A DNA stretch of 57,181 bases, filler included, from Basidiobolus ranarum (Eukaryota), in NCBI GenBank assembly GCA_040143965.1. It is 6 parts of 6 records of this genome, joined end to end, with 100 filler letters (N's around TTAATTAATTAA, not from the genome) between each part and the next. Parts side by side here need not be neighbours in the genome. Positions count along the whole stretch, not along the records: positions 9,567 to 19,029 come from JASJQH010007699.1; 5 more parts are not named here. One strand, written 5' to 3'. Position 1 is the first letter of the stretch; each line of letters opens with the position of its first letter. The notes beneath the pieces are model-generated. The model was not told the DNA's origin, did no database searches, and was given only the letters and a program-made list of their open reading frames with translations. Positions 9,467-47,764 of this stretch are shown in pieces. A program made the position numbers and the translations under genes.

Positions 9467-9566
9467 NNNNNNNNNNNNNNNNNNNNNNNNNNNNNNNNNN
9501 NNNNNNNNNNTTAATTAATTAANNNNNNNNNNNNNNNNNNNNNNNNNNNNNNNNNNNNNNNNNNNN
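9467..9566. other. Artificial contig-joining linker (N44-TTAATTAATTAA-N44)
   Basis: 44 N, a 12-mer with stops in all six frames, then 44 N. The identical structure occurs five times, and genes are cut abruptly at it. Confidence 0.98.
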
Positions 9567-12500
9567 GGTCAATTTGATATCACGAAAGGATGGAGAGCCA
9601 ATGTACTAGACTTTAGGGAAATAGACCAAGAGGTAAGCCTTAGCTTTACGTGATCCATGTGATGTGGTAATGTACTTAGATTTTGCTTTATATTCAGTTT
9701 ATTCAGCCGATGGTTGGTGCACCCGAATACGACCCTAGTAAGCTTTACATAACCTATTATAACAGTACTCTAGCACAGAGCTGCTCACGCTTTCCCAAGC
9801 CCATGCCATCCATTATCGGAGCAACTGATGCAGCCATCGATCTTATCACTATGATTTTCCCATATCTCAGCTCTAGTGTTCAGGAATTTACTCTGGAGCA
9901 ACTTTGGAAATCTCTTAAGAACTTGAAACTTGAAAAAAATCCTAACCGAAAGGTTGCTGTTCAAGTAAATATTATTGTGGCATTATTGAGATGCATGGAA
10001 AACCTTGAGAAATTAACCTCCAAAAGAACTGACGGAATCACCATACCAACGGCACAGGGGAGAACCATCGCTCTCACCAAAGAAATCCTGCAGGTAACTT
10101 AGGTCATCAGAGTTTTGAATGCTGCCGATTGATAGCTAATTCGAATCTAGTCCTTTTTATCTAATAGTGATCCATATATCAGATGTGCCAGTGGCCAAAC
10201 TCTTGGATTTCTTGCACAAATTGTTGGTAACCCATTCATTACCAGCGAGATACAATATTTGGTCGATGTAATTGTTAACGATCGAGATCCTAATGTAAGA
10301 AGTGGGTGCGTCATTGCTCTAAGTTGTATTTACAATCGAGTTGGTGGCATCGCCGCAAATGTCCATTTAAAGATGGTGGTTGGAATCTTACACTCGTTAA
10401 GTAACGATTCTCACCCGGCTGTACATTCTTGGGCTCTCAAAGCTTTATCATTGACCATCAATTCTGCTGGATCCATGTTTGCACCATATGTAAATGGTAC
10501 CATCGGAGTTGTTGCTAAAGTGTTTATGTCAGAAGGACATGAGCACGGATATCATCCACATATCAATCTTCCCTTTGGTATGGCTCAAGAGGTTGTATAT
10601 CAAACTTTAGGCCATCTTTTGTATGCGTTGGTTGGTACACTAGGACCTGAACTTCAATCAACTACCAAAGTCAGAGAGATCTGTCTCTGTTTAATCGAGG
10701 AGCTCAAGAATAATGACGAACCTTTGGTTGTAGTAGAGTATATCAAATGTGTTCACCATTTGCTGATGTTTGCTCCGAAATCTGTTGATATATCCTCCTT
10801 GGTACCTTTCCTTCAAAAGCAACTATATAGTCTCAATTTTTGTTTGAAATCAGCGGCTGTGACATGCTTGTACCAGCTTGTACAACGCAACGTTAAGGAT
10901 GTACTCAAGAATTCTAAACCAGGTCTTCGAGAACAGCTTTTCTTTTTACTTGATGATGGATTAGATATGGAAGATGCTAAAAGAGTAATCAAGAGCCACT
11001 TATCGCAAACAGTTTCTGAGGAGCCATTGGAGTGGTTGGATATATGTAAGAGGATTCTATCAAAGAGCTCATCAGATTCAAACATGGCGGAAACTAAAGG
11101 TGCTGATATGGAAGAGTATGGCGATGACTCGGCTGCTTTCACAGCAGCTAGCGTGCCTGCAACATCATCAGGACCAGAGCCAGCCGAGGATTTTTTGAAA
11201 TTGCCCTCTAGATGGCGTGCTCAATTGTTTGCACTGGACTGTTTGAGAGAAATTGTAAATTCTTTAGCCAGCAGCGATGAAAATGCACATTTCGAGATGA
11301 TACATGCGAAAGAGAATTTCCCTTTAAATACTGGTTACCTGGTATTTAGATTATCAGAACTTATCAAAATATCCTTTGTTGCAGCCACTTCGTCGATTAT
11401 TGAAATTCGACTGGGTGGTTTATCCTTACTGCGTGATATCATAAAACATTTTGCTACTTCTTCTGATCCTGATTTCGAAGAAGCTATGATTTTGGAACAA
11501 TACCAAGCTCAGATTACCTCGGCACTAACGCCTGCATTCTCATCCAAATCAGCTCCTGAAGTCTTGGCTTCTGCGATTCAAGTATGCGGTGATTTCATTG
11601 CAGGCCATATTGTAAGAGAAATCAGTACTTTGGGAAGAATGGTTAAACTCCTGACAACAACTCTTGAGGAAAGCTCCAAGGAAGCCTTTAATAACGAAAG
11701 CCCTGACGGTAAAATCCTAGTGAATATAACTACTCTTAAAGTATGGGCCGAGTTGTTTGTTCTGTCTCAAACAGAGGAATATCTTTTGGAGATTATTGAA
11801 CCTAGATTGGAAGTTTTATGTGAACTATGGCTTACTTTCATACAGGACTATGCTAAAGTACGGCTCGGATCAACCGGAGTTACTAGCTCAAATGGATTAG
11901 GCGTTGGTGTTCTAACTTCTGGACTAGAGTCGATATATGGATCTTCCGTTATAGAGATTATTTTACCTTATTACGAAAAAGCATGGATTCCTATTATGAA
12001 TGCAGTGTCAGTGCTAATTGATTCTGATAATCCTTGCATGCACAACTTGCTAAGAGAGAGTACCACAAACGAGAAAATTTACGAAACGCCCTCCAGGTTC
12101 TTCTTCATTTTATTAGGTTTATGTGTTGAGGCCCTTGCAGAGCCGGTTAAAACCCACAGATACTCTAAAGGTCTCAACTCTATTCTCGTGCTTGTTAGAG
12201 CTTTACGGTCCATTTTAAGCCCTCTGGTAGCTGGGAGACAATGCCTCGAGCAATCGTTATATATGGAGATCATGAGTGTATTAGAGAAGTTAATGATTCG
12301 CGAATCGACAATGGTTCAAGTGGTCATAGCAGATGTTTGCAAGACTTTGGCCATTGAATACTCGACTGATTATTTGTTTGCCGGAATGTCTACAGTCAGG
12401 TTTGTATATTACTAGCATGTGCGCTGATTTTAGCTATATCTAAGTCATTCCGAATTGTTCATCAGCGAAGATAATTATTCAGATCTTTTCATGACCACCA

Positions 12501-13894
12501 AAGCATATCGATGCACCAAAATCCTTATGCTCGGGCTTTCAAGAAATATCCCCGAACTTTCTTCTGAGCCTTCCACACCTGGTAAAGCCATTCACCATTT
12601 ACAGCATTTGCTAATCCACTAATTCTACTGCAAAAAATAGCTTTGCCAACAAATTCGCAAGGAACGTTGCTGGTTTTGGCCGCTTTAGATGCTCTATCAA
12701 ATATTATCATGATTTCTCCTGATCCTATCGGTCTGGATTTGCTTGCTACATTCCTCCATGCTTCTACCAGTAAGTATTTATTTTCCTACTCGTACTCGCG
12801 GCATATTTTAACGATTTTGGATGATTAGATGCCCTTCGTTCACTTAAATTATCAAAGGAAGAAGTAACCAAGTTTATGCTTATTCATAAGAACATTCTCA
12901 TCGCGATCGAATCTGGAAGAATTTCTCAAAACCGAGAAACCTTATCCAGGACTATATCACAGGCATTGAACACCATAATGTCATCTATTGATGTTGAAAG
13001 GTAACGCTTTCTAATCACCAAACTTGATAACTATTCATATTGATCGTTCTCTCTTAGACTTGACTCACAAAATCTCAACGAAATTCAAATAGACACCATC
13101 AATAATATGATGATGTTTGTAGTGCTATTCCTCACAACGTGCCCCACTTATTGTGATGTTGGCTTGTCTCAGAGACTCACAGACATATTTATAGCTTATC
13201 TCTTTGCACCACATATTCAAGTCAGTGATTTGATGTGCTACAGTTGTTGGAAGACTGTACTAATCCTAAAATCTTTACTTTTATCTTCAGATAACACGTT
13301 CAGCACTGCAGTATGCCAAGGCCTTTTTGTATCAAAACAACAAACCCAGCTCTGCTTCTAAACAGATATCCTCTAGTGTTTTACAAAATTTCATTCCAGA
13401 AATCATCAAGTTTCTATATCAAGCGAAATCAAATAACTCTAGACTCTCTAACGATGCAATCAGCCACGAATCTGTGAAAGATGCTGCTGGATTTTTGGTC
13501 GCCTTTGGAGCGTCCACTAAGCATGAAAAAAGTATGACTTTATTCAAAAGCAATCCATCTGTTTGAGAGCTTTATGCTAATTGCCTTATTCACTAGGATC
13601 TACGATTTTTACTCTTGTTATATGTACTTTGGTTAGCTTGTTAGACGGTGTTGATGAGCTTCTTGATCCGTCAAAGCTCCATCAAATTATTATCGCAAAG
13701 ATGGTTACTCTAGCAACCGAATGTTCACAAGATTTCAAAACTGTTCTTAACAGTTTAGAGCCTGATATGCGTGCCAAACTGGAGCATGCTATCAGACAAA
13801 GTATTCAAACATCTAATGAAGCCTCACATACAGATAGTAGTCAAGAAAAAGCACCCCTATAATTCAGCTTAAAGACAACTTCGTCTATTTTTAA
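9567..13894 (+). CDS. LAA1: HEAT-repeat protein HEATR5/Laa1/Sip1 (AP-1 accessory), 5'-truncated, ~8 introns; apparent frameshift in the last codons
   Basis: Conserved segments (VNDRDPNVRSGC, LHSLSNDSHPAVHSWAL, LVGTLGPELQ, RWRAQLFALDCL, DPDFEEAMILEQYQAQITSALTPAF). The reading frame stops at 13860-13862, but a family-like end PIIQLKDNFVYF* lies in the -1 frame to 13894. Confidence 0.9.
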
Positions 13895-14499
13895 AGTCAA
13901 TATTTCAATTTATAGTTGGCACTTTGATTTGTAACAATAACGTTGGTGACCACTTATATAAACCTTTCAACTACATATTTGATCTATTTAACTTCATCGC
14001 CCCGGTGTTCCCAAGGATGCAACGTCATAGGACGCACAAATATCTTACAAATCAACTATTTATGCATCATCTACTCGCATATTTCAAATGGAACACTGCT
14101 GAACATTTCGGGTAGTTTGATAGAAGGTGAGGTAACAGTCAGGAACCACACAAGTGGAATTTGTTATCAGATCTTTCAGTTTAGGAAACCCTATGAGTTG
14201 ATCTGATAAAATCTATGCCTTAGGCTCTAGGCCTTATATATGACACATTACAGGGTTGCATAAGAATGGAATACTTGTCCTTTATGGGCTGATCCTTTTT
14301 GCTGGCATTATTGGTGCAATAGGAAGCAGGATTATTGAGACCATTGATAATACAAATCTATACTTCCAAATAAGATTGCACAGTTCTCAAATTGGTCGAT
14401 TGGATGCTTTTAAATCACAACGCTAGAGGCATGTGTAACTGTAAATTCTATTCAAAAAGCTTGCTCTCTCCGAAGACTAGTCTTCTATAGTAGGTCAAT

Positions 14500-15571
14500 A
14501 TGGACTACATTCTATTGATTACCGATGAATACGCTTTCGACAAAGTTTACCAAACCCTTAGCTATGTGGGTCTTCCTATCCTTGGTCGTCATGAACTACT
14601 TCGTCAGTTCTGTAGCTTAATGTTCATTTCCTGCTTTGGAGCTTATGCAATCTACATGATATTTTCCACCCTTTCTTTCTATTTGCTATTTGACAAAAGA
14701 CAAATGAATCACCCGCGTTTTCTCAAAAATCAAATACAACTAGAGATCAAAATGGCCACTGATTCTATCCCAACCATGGCGCTTTTAACTGTACCGTTCT
14801 TTATTTTCGAAGTTCGTGGATACTCTCTACTTTACGAGGATGTGGAAGAATACGGCTGGGCCTATTTGATTTTTAGCATATTCTTATTCCTTTTCCTCAC
14901 AGACTTTGGCATATATTGGATTCATCGTGCATTGCATCATAAATCTGTTTACGCAACTATTCACAAGGTATGTTAACGATAGATGCAAATCTGCAAGCAA
15001 CAGAGTTCACTCACCATGTTTCTCTAAACTCTAGCCTCACCATAAATGGATTGGTATGTACAGTGTTGATGCTATTATGCTTTATAGTCTAGTACTTATC
15101 TATTTACTTAGTTCCTACGCCGTTTGCTTCCATCGCTTTTCATCCTATCGACGGCTGGGCGCAATCTCTTCCATATCATATTTGCGTGTTCTTGTTTCCG
15201 ATGCACAAGTTCCTTTATCTTGTATTATTCATGCTTGTTCAGATCTGGTCGGTTTTGATTCATGATGGTAAGTGGTTCATTATTTGTCGAAGGTTTTCAA
15301 GCAGTCCAACTCACTTGTAATCCTAGGAGAATATTTTACACATGATCCATTGATCAACAGTGCCGCTCACCATACAATACATCATCTGTATTTCAACTAC
15401 AATTATGGGCAGTACCTCACCTTGTGGGATCGAATTGGTGGTTCTTATCGTAAACCGAATGAAGAAATCTATAACATAGAACTCCGAGGTACCAAGAAAG
15501 TTTACTCCAAACAAGCGGAAGAAGTGGACACCATGGTAACTGCTTTGGATAACAAGTCGAAATCTTGTTGA
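14500..15571 (+). CDS. ERG3: C-5 sterol desaturase (Erg3/SC5D), 3 introns
   Basis: HPRFLKNQI, His boxes [17 protein letters not shown] and [31 protein letters not shown]. Confidence 0.95.
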
Positions 15572-15621
15572 ATACAATGAGTACATACGATTTCCCGACT
15601 TTTATTGCTGCTTGAAATTGA

Positions 15622-16096
15622 TCACTTCAGTCGTTTCTCATGGGCCCTCTTTCTCTTTACACTTGTATTCTTACCGGATGGGTATTTCAGAATTTTGCAT
15701 GCTAATATTGAAATATTTACCACACTTCTTTTCTTATCATTTAAGTAATCATTCGAATAAAGAATCCAGGAAAGATTCAGAAGTTTTATCAACCAAGACC
15801 CATAAAACCTTAGAGTTATGGTTTATGAATTAACCATAATAAAAGAAAGCTTTATTTACATTTCCATCTAATAATCAAGATTCACAAATGTCACGGTGAA
15901 AGTACTGAATATGAACTTAAGAAATTGGATGCCCATTCCACTTGAATATTCTCCCTAATCATACTGTAGGTGGCTCCAATGGCTCCGATTGATCAGTATT
16001 TATCGCTCGAAGCGAGAGTTGGTACATGATTATAAGGATTAATACCATTGCCAATATTATATAACACATGTGTCGTTTGTGTGGTACTGAAACCAT
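15622..16096 (-). pseudogene. Candidate small spliced gene or pseudogene with an N-terminal signal anchor
   Basis: ATG at 16096 begins MVSVPHKRHMCYIILAMVLILIIMYQLSL. Three possible ~50-nt GT-AG introns (15916-15964, 15809-15859, 15670-15720) keep one frame to TGA at 15622, with one internal TAG (15868-15870). AATAAA lies just downstream. Confidence 0.3.
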
Positions 16097-17027
16097 ACGA
16101 GTTAAACGATGAGTAGTTCCTCGAAAGCGTGTTCCAAACGAACTAAAAGAGTTTCCCTTGTTATAGAAAGAAATTAGTGAGATGCGTATATAAACACTTG
16201 ATGTATGAACGGGGAAATGGCGGCCAGCTATCGTCATTATCACTCTATTTTATAACGTACCGTTTCATCAACCAGGAGATTTTGTCCCTCTACTTCATCA
16301 TAAATGTTCGTAGTGATCTAAAATATGCAAAGAAAGAAAAGAAATATAGGTTAGCTCTTGTTGAATACTGGTTATTTGAAAAAGAAAAGGGTATATCTAC
16401 TCGATGCAAAGCTGATACTTTAGAGGAAAGTTCTTGAAGTCTTATGTCATTTTGTTGCTCAACAAGATGAGCATCCGCTTGCTTTCTAGCATCATCCGTG
16501 TTACCGAATGGACTTTTTCTCGAATTTTCCCCCCTATTGACATGTATATACTAAGTAACACAGAATAGAATATAAAAATAATAGCAAGTTCGTTTCTTAC
16601 CAGTTGGACATAGAGAAGCTATAAAACTTGGTAGTAAGTTATGGTATGTAACTGGGTCTACGTAGCTGAATTCTTATTAGAGTCTGGAAACATGTCAATT
16701 TTAGTAGATATTTCCTAAATTCAATCAACAATAAATGCTTCTGATATCGGATCCAATCACTCGATAAAATCCAACATAATGTGCGAGAAAGTTTGAAGTT
16801 TTAATATCTCTTGAAATCACTTGATCAAGAATATAAATTGTCAATATAATTATTCACTACAGGAAATTAAAAATAAAATAAAGAAATCTCATGGAATCGT
16901 ATGACATGAAACTAATAGAATGATTAGCATTAGTAGTATGCTTTCGATATAATATTTTCTTAAACAAGATAAACCTTGAAGAGTGAGAGGCTTGAATGGA
17001 GCAATAGCAAAAGTCCTCCGTCACAAG

Positions 17028-17942
17028 TTAATATCTTCTTAGAGGCTTAGCTATGGAACAACCAGAAGGTAACTGAAGAAGTGGGCGAGGCTGTAGCAGT
17101 CTATTAGTCGTGTCAGCCTCGATGTGATTGTTACCATAAGATATGTCAACCCCTTACTTCGTCTCAATTCTGGTTGAAGGCTTCCGTAGTGCTTGAGCCT
17201 CTTCTGTTTCCATTACTTTGCCCATTTTTTCGATCTGAGATTTTTGTGTATCAGATGTGGAATACAATTCAAGAGTTTTTTCTTCCTTTGGACTTGATAT
17301 GACAGGTTCTTCCACTGACACCTCGATTAATCTTGCATGGCCAAATTGAACCTCCTTGTTCTCATTCATTGGAAGGCTGTGCAATTCCTGAATCTCCTCA
17401 CGCTTCATACATTTACTCTTTTCTTTGATTCTAGAATTTGGCATGGCACTGTTGGCATTCCCATTTTGCTTTTGGCCTACGCTCCAAGCTGTAACACCTT
17501 GTTCACTAATCTCAATTAGACCATCATCAGATATCTCAGTGACATTTTCATCCTCAAATTGGCCTTTTTTGTTGATCATTCGGTTGCCTATCCACTAGTG
17601 AGGTTCCACATTGTTTATAGGCTGATTTTGAATGGTGCCTATTTTCTCATCTTGAGAAATTGATGTCTCATCAACTTTAATCCCTCTCTCCAAATCATTG
17701 GGTCGAGTTGGCATTTGAATCTCCTCATTCTCCATCTGAGGTACTTTAGGTTGAATCTCCGATTACGTCTTGGTTACTAGCATGTTTGTGGATGCCGTTT
17801 CTTCTGAGTTCAAGGGTCGAGAGGATTGTTGTAATGGAGAAACGACAGCTGCATTAGCACCAGAAATATCAACTGATGGTCCAGAAATAACACTAGTTTG
17901 TGGATTTTTATCACTCAAAGTAATACCTGGCTTTTGGGGCAT
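17028..17942 (-). pseudogene. Acidic low-complexity coding-like frame with three in-frame stops, fused to the Fanzor C-terminus
   Basis: ORFs 17763-18338 and 17154-17579 are in the same frame. Reading through the stops at 17763, 17595 and 17154 gives continuous E/Q/S/N-rich sequence to 17028. Confidence 0.55.
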
Positions 17943-19029
17943 AAATCGGTCAGGACGGGTACCTTTTTCTCTAAGCGAAGTTAAGATGTGACGGAAATTA
18001 AGTACTGCAGCAAGGTCTCGGTTCCAAAGTCGTCTAATGCTACTGGCTGGCGCGGTCTTCAAACAATTTTGGTTTGTGTACCTATTTGACGAAACAGCAT
18101 CTTCTCCGAATTTCCTCTTCAAACTGTTTGCTAATTCTTGGTCAAAATGTAGTCTATTAATTTTGTTAGAGAACTTTATTTTTCTGAAAGGTAATGCCAG
18201 CTTGTGCTTGATAGTGTCTGCCAATTCATCTACCATTTTACGGCGATATTCGTACTCTTTCTTGAAAGTTTCTTCAGAGCTGTTTAAACAATTGGCAGCT
18301 TCCTTTACCAAGGCATCCAATCTTTGCTTCTCGTTCATATTAAGTTCTGAAAAAGTATGTTTATCTTGAAGGACAGCATGAATGCGATTAACAGATAGTT
18401 TGTAATTGCTTAGCTTGGCGACTGCTTAAAGTGCCTCTTCTGGCAGTACTAAAGCTCTGTTTGAGTATAGACATACCGACTCCGTCTGTTTCAATGGTCC
18501 TTTCAAACTTCATTGTCTTTGCATTTTGACTTTTAATATCTTTACAGTTTAGATTAACGACACTACCCCAAATATCGACCTTGTTTCCAGTGAAATTCTA
18601 GTTTTTCAATATATGATAGTTCAAGATCTTAGTATCTGTTCGCAGTGGGAAGCAGTTAAACGATTTCATATTAATATCTTCACATATAAAATGCGCGTAA
18701 ATGCTGCTGCGGGTTTGCTTTGGCGTCGTAGTAAACAGAGTTCTTTGCAAACTTTTAAATGTCTGGGTAAACATCCAAAAAGTTTTGAATTTGATGCACA
18801 GCCCTGTCATCCAAGAAATTTGCTGGAGATATTTCCGCTTTAATCTTATCGCAAACATCAAGTATATTGGCTTTGATTGAAGTTTTTATTTCCTCTTTTG
18901 AGTAGCGGTTGTTTTTCATATCTTGAGTCAGCTTCTTGATCTCTTTTTTTCGTAAAACCTTGTTTAGAAACATTCTGAGACGATTTCGAAAGTGAAGAGC
19001 TACATTATTAATGTAGGTGGTATGAATCT
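17943..19029 (-). mobile_element. Degenerate Fanzor (eukaryotic TnpB-like RNA-guided endonuclease) pseudogene, 5'-truncated by contig end
   Basis: Motifs in the order typical of fungal Fanzor/TnpB-like proteins: TYINNVALHF, YYDAKANPQQHLRAFY, KSFNCFPLRT-DTKILNYHIL, IWGSVVNL, FERTIETDGVGMSILKQ, LPFRKIKFSNKIN...LKRKFGEDAV, TNQNCL...RLWNRDLAAVLNFRHIL...RPDRF. Stops at 18755 and 18598, frameshifts and internal deletions. Confidence 0.85.
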
Positions 19030-19129
19030 NNNNNNNNNNNNNNNNNNNNNNNNNNNNNNNNNNNNNNNNNNNNTTAATTAATTAANNNNNNNNNNNNNNN
19101 NNNNNNNNNNNNNNNNNNNNNNNNNNNNN
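19030..19129. other. Artificial contig-joining linker
   Basis: Same N44-TTAATTAATTAA-N44 structure. Confidence 0.98.
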
Positions 19130-28578: not shown

Positions 28579-28678
28579 NNNNNNNNNNNNNNNNNNNNNN
28601 NNNNNNNNNNNNNNNNNNNNNNTTAATTAATTAANNNNNNNNNNNNNNNNNNNNNNNNNNNNNNNNNNNNNNNNNNNN
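28579..28678. other. Artificial contig-joining linker
   Basis: Same structure; truncates the OGT-like ORF on the left and actin on the right. Confidence 0.98.
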
Positions 28679-38123: not shown

Positions 38124-38223
38124 NNNNNNNNNNNNNNNNNNNNNNNNNNNNNNNNNNNNNNNNNNNNTTAATTAATTAANNNNNNNNNNNNNNNNNNNNN
38201 NNNNNNNNNNNNNNNNNNNNNNN
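38124..38223. other. Artificial contig-joining linker
   Basis: Same structure. Confidence 0.98.
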
Positions 38224-47664: not shown

Positions 47665-47764
47665 NNNNNNNNNNNNNNNNNNNNNNNNNNNNNNNNNNNN
47701 NNNNNNNNTTAATTAATTAANNNNNNNNNNNNNNNNNNNNNNNNNNNNNNNNNNNNNNNNNNNN
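47665..47764. other. Artificial contig-joining linker
   Basis: Same structure; truncates the MgtA-like ORF. Confidence 0.98.

What the first reader, a model, noticed from the sequence alone, without database searches (positions are those of the whole stretch)
17943..19029. Fossil Fanzor (eukaryotic TnpB/Cas12-related RNA-guided nuclease) spread across three short ORFs
Seen: stitching the minus-strand frames gives TYINNVALHFRNRLRMFLN...YPDI*KFAKNSVYYDAKANPQQHLRAFY / KSFNCFPLRTDTKILNYHILKN*...IWGSVVNLN...KFERTIETDGVGMSILKQ (TDG at 18481-18489) ... LPFRKIKFSNKINRLHFDQELANSLKRKFGEDAV | TNQNCLK...RLWNRDLAAVLNFRHIL (WNRD at 18015-18026). Known: the TDG motif, the FRK..F helix and the terminal WNRD..A..N RuvC-III motif characterise Fanzor/TnpB-like proteins, which are transposon-borne and guided by an omega-RNA encoded at the element's 3' end. 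I cannot see the RuvC-I DPG motif or the RuvC-II glutamate/CxxC segment; both look deleted (junctions near 18420 and 18090), so this copy is dead. Inference: it marks a Fanzor-carrying transposon family in this fungus, and intact copies elsewhere could be an undescribed programmable nuclease system.
Basis: partly seen in the sequence, partly recalled or inferred. Interest (0 to 1): 0.8.

Follow-up and report, generated by a model that had tools for sequence, protein, structure and literature searches.

The report
Dead Fanzor1 nuclease gene fragment

Summary
The minus strand of 17763-19027 carries four open pieces in three frames. In order, they match the solved Parasitella parasitica Fanzor1 (PDB 9cf0) with E 1e-14, 0.49, 2.5e-10 and 5.5e-12.

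The copy is dead. It has two in-frame stops, two frameshifts and two large deletions. The deletions remove the RuvC-I Asp ("IDPG") and the RuvC-II Glu plus zinc finger, so only the third catalytic residue remains.

One correction is needed. The window is six contigs joined by N/TTAATTAATTAA linkers, so the N-terminus is cut by a contig end and cannot be called deleted.

The nearest relatives are fragmentary gene models at seven Basidiobolus ranarum loci, 64-88% identical. They do not share the two big deletions where they cover the junctions. No intact close copy was seen. P0023 (591 aa, 39-56% identical, cut at contig ends) keeps the first two catalytic motifs.

No omega-RNA, transposon ends or transposase could be shown. 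Neither the whole genome nor sequencing runs were available.

Verdict: a decayed member of a known kind, of low interest.

The parts
18755..19027 (-). Piece 1 (frame a), part of the REC region of Fanzor1. It starts at the contig end and ends at the in-frame TAA at 18757-18755. It also has a 7-codon gap at about 18827/18826 relative to P0120 and P0023.
   Evidence: E 1e-14 to 9cf0_P residues 639-731; 76% identity to B. ranarum P0120, which has Tyr where the relic has the stop.
18686..18754 (-). Continuation of frame a after the stop ('KFAKNSVYYDAKANPQQHLRAFY'). It ends in a deletion of about 14 nt with a frameshift at about 18690-18686.
   Evidence: P0120 and P0023 read 'RAFYMLVKVCEEN' / 'QAYYMLAKICEEN' across the point where the relic changes frame. 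Sequence.
18601..18687 (-). Piece 2 (frame b), 'ICEDINMKSFNCFPLRTDTKILNYHILKN'. It has a 9-codon in-frame deletion at about 18640-18637 and ends at the in-frame TAG at 18600-18598.
   Evidence: the sisters have 'PLRKGFIPSYMTIDTKIL', and Lys where the relic has TAG.
18421..18597 (-). Piece 3 (frame b), the segment with the conserved 'ETDGVG' strand (TDG at 18489-18481). This motif is conserved in Fanzor1 but is not the catalytic Asp.
   Evidence: E 2.5e-10 to chain 809-864; the same motif is in PpFz1, P0046 and SpuFz1 ('ITTDGASVSV'), upstream of the RuvC-I 'DPG/DPN'.
18408..18421 (-). Junction of deletion 1, with a frameshift. About 185 residues of P0046 (302-486) are missing, or about 220 residues of P0023. 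The lost part includes the RuvC-I Asp motif 'IDPG' and the front of the RuvC insertion.
   Evidence: One search places RuvC-I at 'LMDPGRRD' in PpFz1, aligned to 'IDPN' in SpuFz1 (D383; PMC11423790).
18093..18407 (-). Piece 4a (frame c): the C-terminal helices of the insertion at the FRI site, then the 'LPFRKIKFSNK...KRKFGEDAV' RuvC segment.
   Evidence: domain 2 (chain 1040-1128, i-E 6e-4); 71-83% identity to B. ranarum P0017, P0114 and P0036.
18084..18092 (-). Junction of deletion 2, which is in frame. About 77 residues are missing (PpFz1 chain 1129-1205). They include the RuvC-II Glu ('DEFRTSS') and the CPxC zinc finger / TNB domain.
   Evidence: sister P0127 reads on into 'DAVLVLGD', so it does not share this deletion.
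17928..18083 (-). Piece 4b (frame c): the RuvC-III helix 'RRLWNRDLAAVLNFRHIL...RPDRF', with WNRD at 18026-18015.
   Evidence: domain 3 (chain 1206-1253, i-E 2e-6); 88% identity to B. ranarum P0018. The catalytic D606 of SpuFz1 aligns here.
17763..17927 (-). Ser/Pro-rich C-terminal tail up to the TAA at 17765-17763. It is the end of the 220-codon open frame that a public annotation calls as a 191-aa protein (P0016, from Met at 18338).
   Evidence: P0016 is 100% identical over residues 30-220; the tails of P0038, P0058 and P0019 align down to about 17811-17856.
19030..19129 (.). N44-TTAATTAATTAA-N44 linker between two contigs. It is not part of the element.
   Evidence: five identical linkers in the window; the contig of P0016 is 9463 bases, which equals 9567-19029.

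Best explanation
The region is the 3' two-thirds of a decayed Fanzor1 gene. In its intact form, Fanzor1 is a transposon-borne, omega-RNA-guided RuvC endonuclease of eukaryotes, here of the Mucorales-like type whose solved representative is PpFz1.

Shown:
- The remains are colinear with Fanzor1 from the REC region to the C-terminus.
- They are interrupted by two stop codons, two frameshifts, two small in-frame deletions and two large deletions.
- The large deletions took out the first Asp and the Glu of the D-E-D catalytic triad together with the zinc-finger/TNB domain.

Inferred:
- This copy can neither cut DNA nor fold as a RuvC domain.
- It is a neutral relic of one insertion from an old multi-copy family.
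- The assembler broke the contig inside it because the family is repeated.
- The 191-aa 'protein' annotated on it is a chance-surviving open frame.
For: - Colinear, significant matches to 9cf0_P.
- A full-length relative, P0046, matches PpFz1 at E 5.6e-197. It shows where 'DPG', 'DEFxTSSxCPxC' and 'WNRD' lie. The catalytic residues D383/E541/D606 of SpuFz1 come from PMC11423790 (passages).
- On P0046 the relic covers residues 84-301, 487-589 and 676-703/718 only (blastp, tblastn).
- The stops fall inside well-aligned sequence, where the sisters have Tyr and Lys. The frame changes involve too few bases to be introns.
- Sister fragments at 64-88% identity come from seven B. ranarum loci, all as gene models of 57-177 aa.
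- 104 relatives at E <= 0.001 among 1.84 billion representatives. The long, named ones come from Mucorales and Coemansia.
- No Fanzor remnant elsewhere in the window: 0 of 172 tblastn matches, from the 115 relatives then held, fall outside 17700-19029.
Against: - The 220-codon frame 17763-18425 is unbroken even though it spans deletion 2, while the upstream 210 codons carry four disabling lesions. That is slightly more intact than uniform decay would predict.
- The lesions were read from a single assembly, at a contig end, inside a repeat family. Some could be assembly errors.
- Pfam and NCBIfam give no hit on any piece.
- Expression could not be examined.
Confidence: 0.88

Rival explanations
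1. Assembly artefact. The true locus holds a less damaged or intact Fanzor1 gene, and the deletions or frameshifts arose when short reads from several diverged copies were collapsed at a contig end.
For: The feature abuts the contig end. The family has at least seven other loci in B. ranarum, on short contigs of 3.7-23 kb. Both facts are typical of repeat-induced assembly breaks.
Against: There are eight separate lesions of different kinds. The stops lie within otherwise cleanly aligned sequence. The sister loci are also called only as short fragments, with their own frameshifts: P0017 and P0036 continue in the relic's other frame. Decay is therefore the rule in this family.
Confidence: 0.06
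2. Exapted fragment. The 191-aa open frame (P0016: insertion helices, LPFRK segment and RuvC-III helix) is expressed as a host protein with a new, non-nuclease role.
For: The frame is open for 220 codons across an in-frame deletion. It has been called as a gene.
Against: It keeps no complete domain. It has no Pfam match. The paralogous stretches in B. ranarum are frameshifted or truncated at different points. No orthologue of the same architecture was found among 104 relatives.
Confidence: 0.03
3. 'Ghost'-type locus. The protein gene is dead, but the 3' end still yields an omega-RNA that an intact Fanzor elsewhere in the genome uses in trans, as proposed for the ghost loci of Spizellomyces.
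For: Ghost loci with an omega-RNA but no protein are described (PMC10432273, passages). The gene's 3' end is retained here. One 100-nt window, 17680-17581, folds with z -3.17, the lowest of 58 windows.
Against: No Rfam match. The 176-nt fold of 17570-17745 has z -2.17, and 4 of 200 shuffles fold as well. No sister DNA was available to test conservation. No intact close Fanzor was found that could use such an RNA.
Confidence: 0.03

Closest known systems
Parasitella parasitica Fanzor1 (PpFz1; PDB 9cf0-9cf3; Cell 2024, PMC11423790)
   Same: It is the best solved match for every piece. The order of the REC, WED ('ETDGVG'), 'LPFRKxKF' and 'WNRD..AAVLNFR' segments is the same. Both have an insertion at the same place in RuvC, and the last helices before 'LPFRK' are weakly alike (domain 2, P0046 row).
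   Different: PpFz1 is intact and active. The relic lacks RuvC-I, RuvC-II and the zinc finger. Its N-terminal part lies beyond the contig end and cannot be assessed. The middle of the insertion in the relic's lineage (P0023 residues 314-445; the acidic, Ser/Asn-rich stretch in P0127-P0129) does not align with PpFz1's FRI domain.
Fanzor1 families of Mucorales described by Bao and Jurka 2013 (ROr, MCi and PBl elements; PMC3627910)
   Same: Same protein clade and the same kind of host (early-diverging fungi). Multi-copy families with degenerate members. In the quick tree, the relic's clade sits with Mucorales proteins from Pilaira, Helicostylum, Cokeromyces, Mucor and Rhizopus.
   Different: Those elements were defined with TIRs and TSDs (some are MuDr-like with 9-bp TSDs), and here no ends could be defined. 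Basidiobolus is not in that paper's species table, and the word does not occur in its main text.
Spizellomyces punctatus SpuFz1 / Spu-1 elements (Nature 2023, PMC10432273)
   Same: Same family and mechanism in the intact state. That genome also holds full-length and partial copies: 42 loci, 19 of them full-length (passage).
   Different: Only distant sequence likeness (E 0.021 and 1.8). SpuFz1 has no RuvC insertion. The omega-RNA and IRs are defined there and not here.
Bacterial TnpB (IS200/IS605, IS607) and Cas12
   Same: The ancestral RuvC fold and D-E-D chemistry of the intact family. The intact relative P0046 touches Pfam PF07282 (Cas12f1-like TNB) at E 8.7e-4, below the curated cut-off.
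   Different: The relic itself matches no TnpB or Cas12 profile, and the host is a eukaryote.

Membership tests
Fanzor1 (by descent) | Significant, colinear sequence similarity to experimentally characterised Fanzor1 proteins | tested here: met
   E 1e-14, 0.49, 2.5e-10 and 5.5e-12 to PpFz1, with the pieces in order along the chain; the relic clusters with Fanzor1 relatives.
Fanzor1 / TnpB (as a working nuclease; motif D-X(125,275)-[TS][TS]-X-X-[C4 zinc finger]-X(5,50)-RD of Bao and Jurka 2013, PMC3627910) | First catalytic Asp (RuvC-I; 'DPG/DPN' in Fanzor1) | tested here: not met
   The motif lies in P0046 residues 302-486, which have no counterpart in the relic. The sisters P0114 and P0023 do have 'IDPG'.
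Fanzor1 / TnpB (as a working nuclease) | RuvC-II Glu followed by [TS][TS]xx and the C4 zinc finger (TNB domain) | tested here: not met
   PpFz1 chain 1129-1205 is absent. The relic reads 'GEDAVSSNRYTNQNCL' across the junction.
Fanzor1 / TnpB (as a working nuclease) | Terminal 'RD' with the third catalytic Asp (RuvC-III) | tested here: met
   WNRD at 18026-18015 aligns with 'WNRD' of PpFz1 and SpuFz1 (D606).
Fanzor1 / TnpB (as a working nuclease) | Uninterrupted reading frame | tested here: not met
   Two in-frame stops and two frameshifts.
OMEGA-type system (Fanzor plus omega-RNA) | Conserved structured non-coding RNA at or after the 3' end of the gene, running into the transposon's right end | tested here: inconclusive
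   No Rfam match at E <= 1. Fold scan: lowest z -3.17 of 58 windows. The 176-nt fold has z -2.17. There was no sister DNA for covariation. The PpFz1 omega-RNA sequence is in a supplement that could not be opened.
Fanzor-carrying DNA transposon | Terminal inverted repeats, target-site duplication, associated transposase | not testable with these tools
   The 5' side is beyond the contig end. No convincing repeats in 15500-19029. No other copy in the window. No genome is held.
FRI-domain-bearing Fanzor1 (PpFz1 type) | An insertion of about 100 residues in RuvC between the 'EYYGNE' segment and 'LPFRK', with a cyclophilin-binding Pro loop | tested here: inconclusive
   The relic's lineage does have an insertion at this site (P0023, P0127-P0129). 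The relic keeps its last helices, which align weakly with PpFz1 and P0046. The central part does not align, and the front half is deleted in the relic.
Pfam TnpB/Cas12f families (OrfB_IS605, OrfB_Zn_ribbon / Cas12f1-like_TNB) | Profile match above the gathering score | tested here: not met
   No such family at E <= 10 for any of the four pieces. Nothing relevant in NCBIfam either.

The most novel reading that the evidence does not exclude
The relic marks a Fanzor1 lineage specific to Basidiobolus. This lineage is nested among Mucorales Fanzor1s, not among those of Coemansia, which would fit horizontal transposon transfer between these fungal groups. It carries its own long, acidic version of the RuvC insertion at the FRI site, a domain so far reported only from Parasitella and Rhizopus. 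A still-intact member, of the kind P0023 hints at, would then be an RNA-guided nuclease with an undescribed accessory domain.
Probability: 0.2. Interest if true: 0.4.

Novelty: new member of a known kind. Interest (0 to 1): 0.2.

Why it matters
It matters little in itself. Dead and partial Fanzor copies are expected wherever the family occurs; for example, only 19 of 42 Fz-gene loci in Spizellomyces are full-length (PMC10432273). There are three practical points:
1. A public gene model of 191 aa, and several similar short models in Basidiobolus ranarum, are pseudogene fragments and should not be treated as proteins.
2. Fanzor1 of the PpFz1 type reaches beyond Mucorales into a Basidiobolus-like genome. 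No paper in the searched library holds both 'Fanzor' and 'Basidiobolus'.
3. These copies carry an insertion at the FRI site. That slightly widens the known spread of this accessory region, if the homology holds.

Tried and rejected
- Whole-genome search for intact copies: no genome is held for this window.
- Pfam and NCBIfam on the four pieces: only chance-level hits.
- The local Pfam copy gives no hit for PF26935, which the database pre-computed on several relatives. I could not learn that family's name.
- Rfam on the whole contig: nothing.
- Repeats and tandem repeats around the relic: only short two-copy matches of chance quality.
- DNA self-comparison of 16000-19029 against the window: only the self-match.
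- I first thought P0026 bridged deletion 1. Against P0046 it proved to be a Fanzor without the insertion, and the apparent bridge was a weak alignment of different regions. Rejected.
- Introns as the cause of the frame changes: rejected. The breaks are stops inside aligned residues, or losses of sequence, not extra sequence.
- The downstream same-frame ORFs (17154-17762) as a decayed Fanzor tail: no relative's tail matches them. The only hit in 16500-17960 at E < 0.01 is the known RPDRF segment.
- Word-index searches for longer close relatives found only Coemansia proteins and one B. ranarum fragment. The tool itself warns that finding none is weak evidence.
- Earlier notes of this scan: none for this genome or sequence. 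One note concerns a dead Fanzor1 in a red alga and has no bearing here.

Full report
**What is in the sequence**

Read on the minus strand, 19027 down to 17763 gives four open pieces in three frames:
- 18755-19027, frame a.
- 18598-18885 and 18388-18597, both frame b, separated by a TAG.
- 17763-18425, frame c, 220 codons.

TDG occupies 18489-18481 and WNRD occupies 18026-18015, exactly as stated.

Directly upstream of 19029 lies N44-TTAATTAATTAA-N44. The same linker occurs five times in the window, at intervals of about 9.5 kb. The window is therefore six contigs strung together, and the finding sits at the very end of contig 2 (9567-19029, 9463 bases). The database lists the same length for the contig of the gene model on this ORF. 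The rest of that contig carries ordinary eukaryotic genes on the plus strand: a Laa1/Sip1/HEATR5 HEAT-repeat protein (10151-12415, Pfam E 2.8e-59) and a fatty-acid hydroxylase / sterol desaturase-like gene (14494-15571).

**Is it more than chance**

Yes. Each piece was searched against all PDB chain sequences, and the top hit every time is MBP-tagged Parasitella parasitica Fanzor1 (9cf0_P). The hits are in colinear order:
- Chain 639-731, E 1e-14.
- Chain 762-800, E 0.49, weak alone but in the right place.
- Chain 809-864, E 2.5e-10.
- Chain 1040-1128 plus 1206-1253, E 5.5e-12.

SpuFz1 (8gkh_P) is a distant second, at E 0.021 and 1.8. Pfam and NCBIfam give nothing meaningful on the pieces. An exhaustive HMMER pass over 1.84 billion representatives with the 220-residue frame found 104 proteins at E <= 0.001, 7 at <= 1e-10 and 1 at <= 1e-30. 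The single strongest hit (P0016, 191 aa) is identical to residues 30-220 of the frame, so this ORF has been called as a gene in a public annotation.

**Where the catalytic residues are, and what is missing**

A full-length relative, P0046 (732 aa), aligns with PpFz1 at E 5.6e-197 and with SpuFz1 at E 1.7e-36. Passages of the structural paper name the SpuFz1 catalytic residues D383, E541 and D606 (PMC11423790). In the alignments these correspond to three motifs:
- 'IDPN' in SpuFz1, 'LMDPGRRD' in PpFz1 (RuvC-I).
- 'DEY/FxTSSxCPxC' (RuvC-II, leading into the zinc finger).
- 'WNRD' (RuvC-III).

On P0046 the relic covers residues 84-301, 487-589 and 676-703 by blastp. By tblastn the last block runs to 718. 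Two stretches have no counterpart:
- Residues 302-486, which hold RuvC-I.
- Residues 590 to about 672, which hold the Glu, the [TS][TS] pair and the zinc finger.

These holes cannot be introns, because sequence is missing and not added. The first junction (about 18421-18408) also shifts the frame. The second (18092-18084, 'GEDAV-SSN-RYTNQNCL') is in frame. It lies upstream of RuvC-I, though, and is not the catalytic Asp.

**Smaller lesions**

Alignment to the closest relatives shows the following:
- A 7-codon gap at about 18827/18826.
- TAA at 18757-18755, where P0120 and P0023 have Tyr.
- A loss of about 14 bases with a frameshift at about 18690-18686. The sisters read 'YMLVKVCEE' / 'YMLAKICEE' here.
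- A 9-codon in-frame deletion at about 18640-18637. The sisters read 'PLRKGFIPSYMTIDTKIL'.
- TAG at 18600-18598, where the sisters have Lys.

Together with the two large deletions, that makes eight lesions in about 1.27 kb. The N-terminal part of the protein, everything before PpFz1 chain residue 639, lies beyond the contig end. The data do not say whether it exists.

**Relatives and the family**

The closest proteins are all short gene models of Basidiobolus ranarum:
- P0120 (K7432_005479, 166 aa): 74% identity by blastp, 76% and 67% in the two tblastn blocks.
- P0017 (K7432_005478, the adjacent gene model, 137 aa): 64-71%.
- P0114 (K7432_004811).
- P0018 (K7432_012806, partial): 88%.
- P0036 (K7432_015831).
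- P0127 (K7432_015434): 75%.
- P0128 (K7432_008237): 79%.
- P0129 (K7432_013285): 81%.

That is seven loci, with models of 57-177 aa. Several have their own frameshifts: P0017 and P0036 run on in the relic's alternative frame.

P0017, P0127, P0128 and P0129 contain the stretch just upstream of the relic's 'NYKLSV', which the relic lacks. P0127 reads on into 'DAVLVLGD' beyond 'FG.DAV'. The two big deletions are therefore private to this copy, at least relative to the copies that cover the junctions.

I am not told what organism the window comes from. The pattern fits the same species or a near relative.

The nearest long relative is P0023 (591 aa, from an unnamed assembly, on a 2226-base contig, so cut at both ends). 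It is 39-56% identical to the relic and keeps 'IDPG' and 'NEYKTSSFCPEC'. Neither 'longer' search returned a full-length close relative, which the tool itself rates as weak evidence.

No other Fanzor trace is present in the other five contigs of the window: 0 of 172 tblastn matches, from the 115 relatives then held, fall outside 17700-19029.

**Placement**

I built a quick maximum-likelihood tree of 32 rows. The rows were the relic read through with X at its breaks, plus 31 of the roughly 165 proteins held, picked for length or for carrying a name. The careful search did not finish, the support values are SH-aLRT, and the root is at the midpoint for drawing only.
- The relic groups with two B. 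ranarum fragments and P0023 (support 99).
- That group is sister (87) to a clade of P0046 (PpFz1-like), Cokeromyces, Mucor flavus and Rhizopus arrhizus (99).
- Both lie with Pilaira and Helicostylum (99), apart from the Coemansia clade (99).

Two fragment rows fill under 25% of the columns, so the fine branching is unsure. The result is compatible with transfer of the element between Mucorales and the Basidiobolus lineage, but it does not establish this.

**The RuvC insertion**

The structural paper describes an insertion of about 100 residues in PpFz1's RuvC domain, the FRI domain, which binds cyclophilin. The paper says it was found only in Parasitella and Rhizopus (PMC11423790).

Many long relatives jump from about residue 433-436 of P0046 to about 556-559, for example P0019, P0038, P0043 and P0071. 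The relic's residues 19-111 align to P0046 487-589, so the relic reaches into that insertion. P0023 and P0127-P0129 have a long insertion at the same site, rich in Asp, Ser and Asn. In P0023 only the last helices before 'LPFRK' align with PpFz1, and residues 314-445 do not. The Mucor flavus protein P0047 aligns contiguously with P0046 across the insertion.

So an insertion at this site is wider spread than the paper states. Whether the Basidiobolus version is a true FRI domain remains open.

**Omega-RNA and transposon ends**

In intact Fanzor loci the guide RNA is encoded at or just after the 3' end of the gene and runs into the right inverted repeat (PMC10432273). Here:
- Rfam finds nothing on the contig at E <= 1.
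- A scan of 58 overlapping 100-nt windows on the coding strand gave a lowest z of -3.17, at 17680-17581.
- A 176-nt fold of 17570-17745 gave z -2.17, with 4 of 200 shuffles as stable. It contains a 7-bp hairpin. Taken alone, this is not evidence.

Without DNA of sister copies, neither conservation nor element ends can be judged. Repeat searches found only chance-level matches. The PpFz1 omega-RNA sequence is in a supplement that I could not open.

**How it works**

In the intact state, by established knowledge of the family, the omega-RNA-guided RuvC nuclease cuts DNA next to a TAM, presumably helping its transposon to persist or spread (PMC10432273, PMC11423790). For this copy, inferred from the shown lesions, there is no nuclease and no foldable RuvC domain, only a neutral relic.

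The unbroken 220-codon frame is a little longer than the lesion density upstream would predict. I therefore keep exaptation (0.03) and a ghost-type RNA donor (0.03) as minor rivals, and assembly error (0.06) as a technical one.

**Verdict**

The 'fossil' is real. It is a decayed member of a known, structurally solved family, in a host group where Fanzor1 is reported as widespread (PMC10432273; PMC3627910). The hoped-for undescribed nuclease system is not supported by anything I could test. No paper in the searched library holds both 'Fanzor' and 'Basidiobolus'. The family as such is therefore unreported there, although supplementary tables that I could not see may list it.

Noticed in passing
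window 9467-9566, 19030-19129, 28579-28678, 38124-38223, 47665-47764: The window is not one stretch of genome. It is six contigs of about 9.5 kb joined by N44-TTAATTAATTAA-N44 linkers, so nothing may be inferred across these points.
   Followed up: yes
window 17154-17762, minus strand: Two more open frames (55 and 146 codons; acidic, Ser/Lys-rich) lie in the same frame as the relic's last ORF, separated from it and from each other only by TAA 17765-17763 and TAG 17597-17595. The 146-codon frame exceeds the 95th percentile (115) but not the maximum (175) of 500 mononucleotide shuffles of 15600-17762. It has no Pfam hit and no match to any relative's tail. It could be a decayed coding remnant of unknown origin, or chance.
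   Followed up: partly
window 17570-17745, minus strand: A moderately stable predicted RNA fold (-41.4 kcal/mol, z -2.17), including a 7-bp hairpin, lies 20-190 nt after the relic's stop codon. This is where an omega-RNA scaffold would be expected, but it is not significant taken alone.
   Followed up: partly
window 17763-18338, minus strand (P0016): A public annotation calls a 191-aa protein on the last open piece of the pseudogene. Seven B. ranarum loci carry similar short models (57-177 aa) that are fragments of decayed Fanzor1 copies.
   Followed up: yes
proteins P0023, P0127-P0129, P0047 (relatives, not in the window): These relatives have an insertion at the FRI site of the RuvC domain: unnamed P0023, B. 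ranarum P0127-P0129 (long, acidic, Ser/Asn-rich) and Mucor flavus P0047 (contiguous with the PpFz1-like P0046). The structural paper reports FRI only from Parasitella and Rhizopus.
   Followed up: partly
window 10151-12415 (+) and 14494-15571 (+): Host genes on the same contig: a Laa1/Sip1/HEATR5 HEAT-repeat protein (Pfam E 2.8e-59) and a fatty-acid hydroxylase / sterol desaturase-like gene split by at least one intron.
   Followed up: partly
relatives P0005, P0007, P0009-P0015, P0120: The database's pre-computed Pfam label PF26935 on many Fanzor1 relatives is not reproduced by the local Pfam copy: no hit for P0015, P0007 or P0010 at E <= 0.01. I could not learn that family's name.
   Followed up: partly
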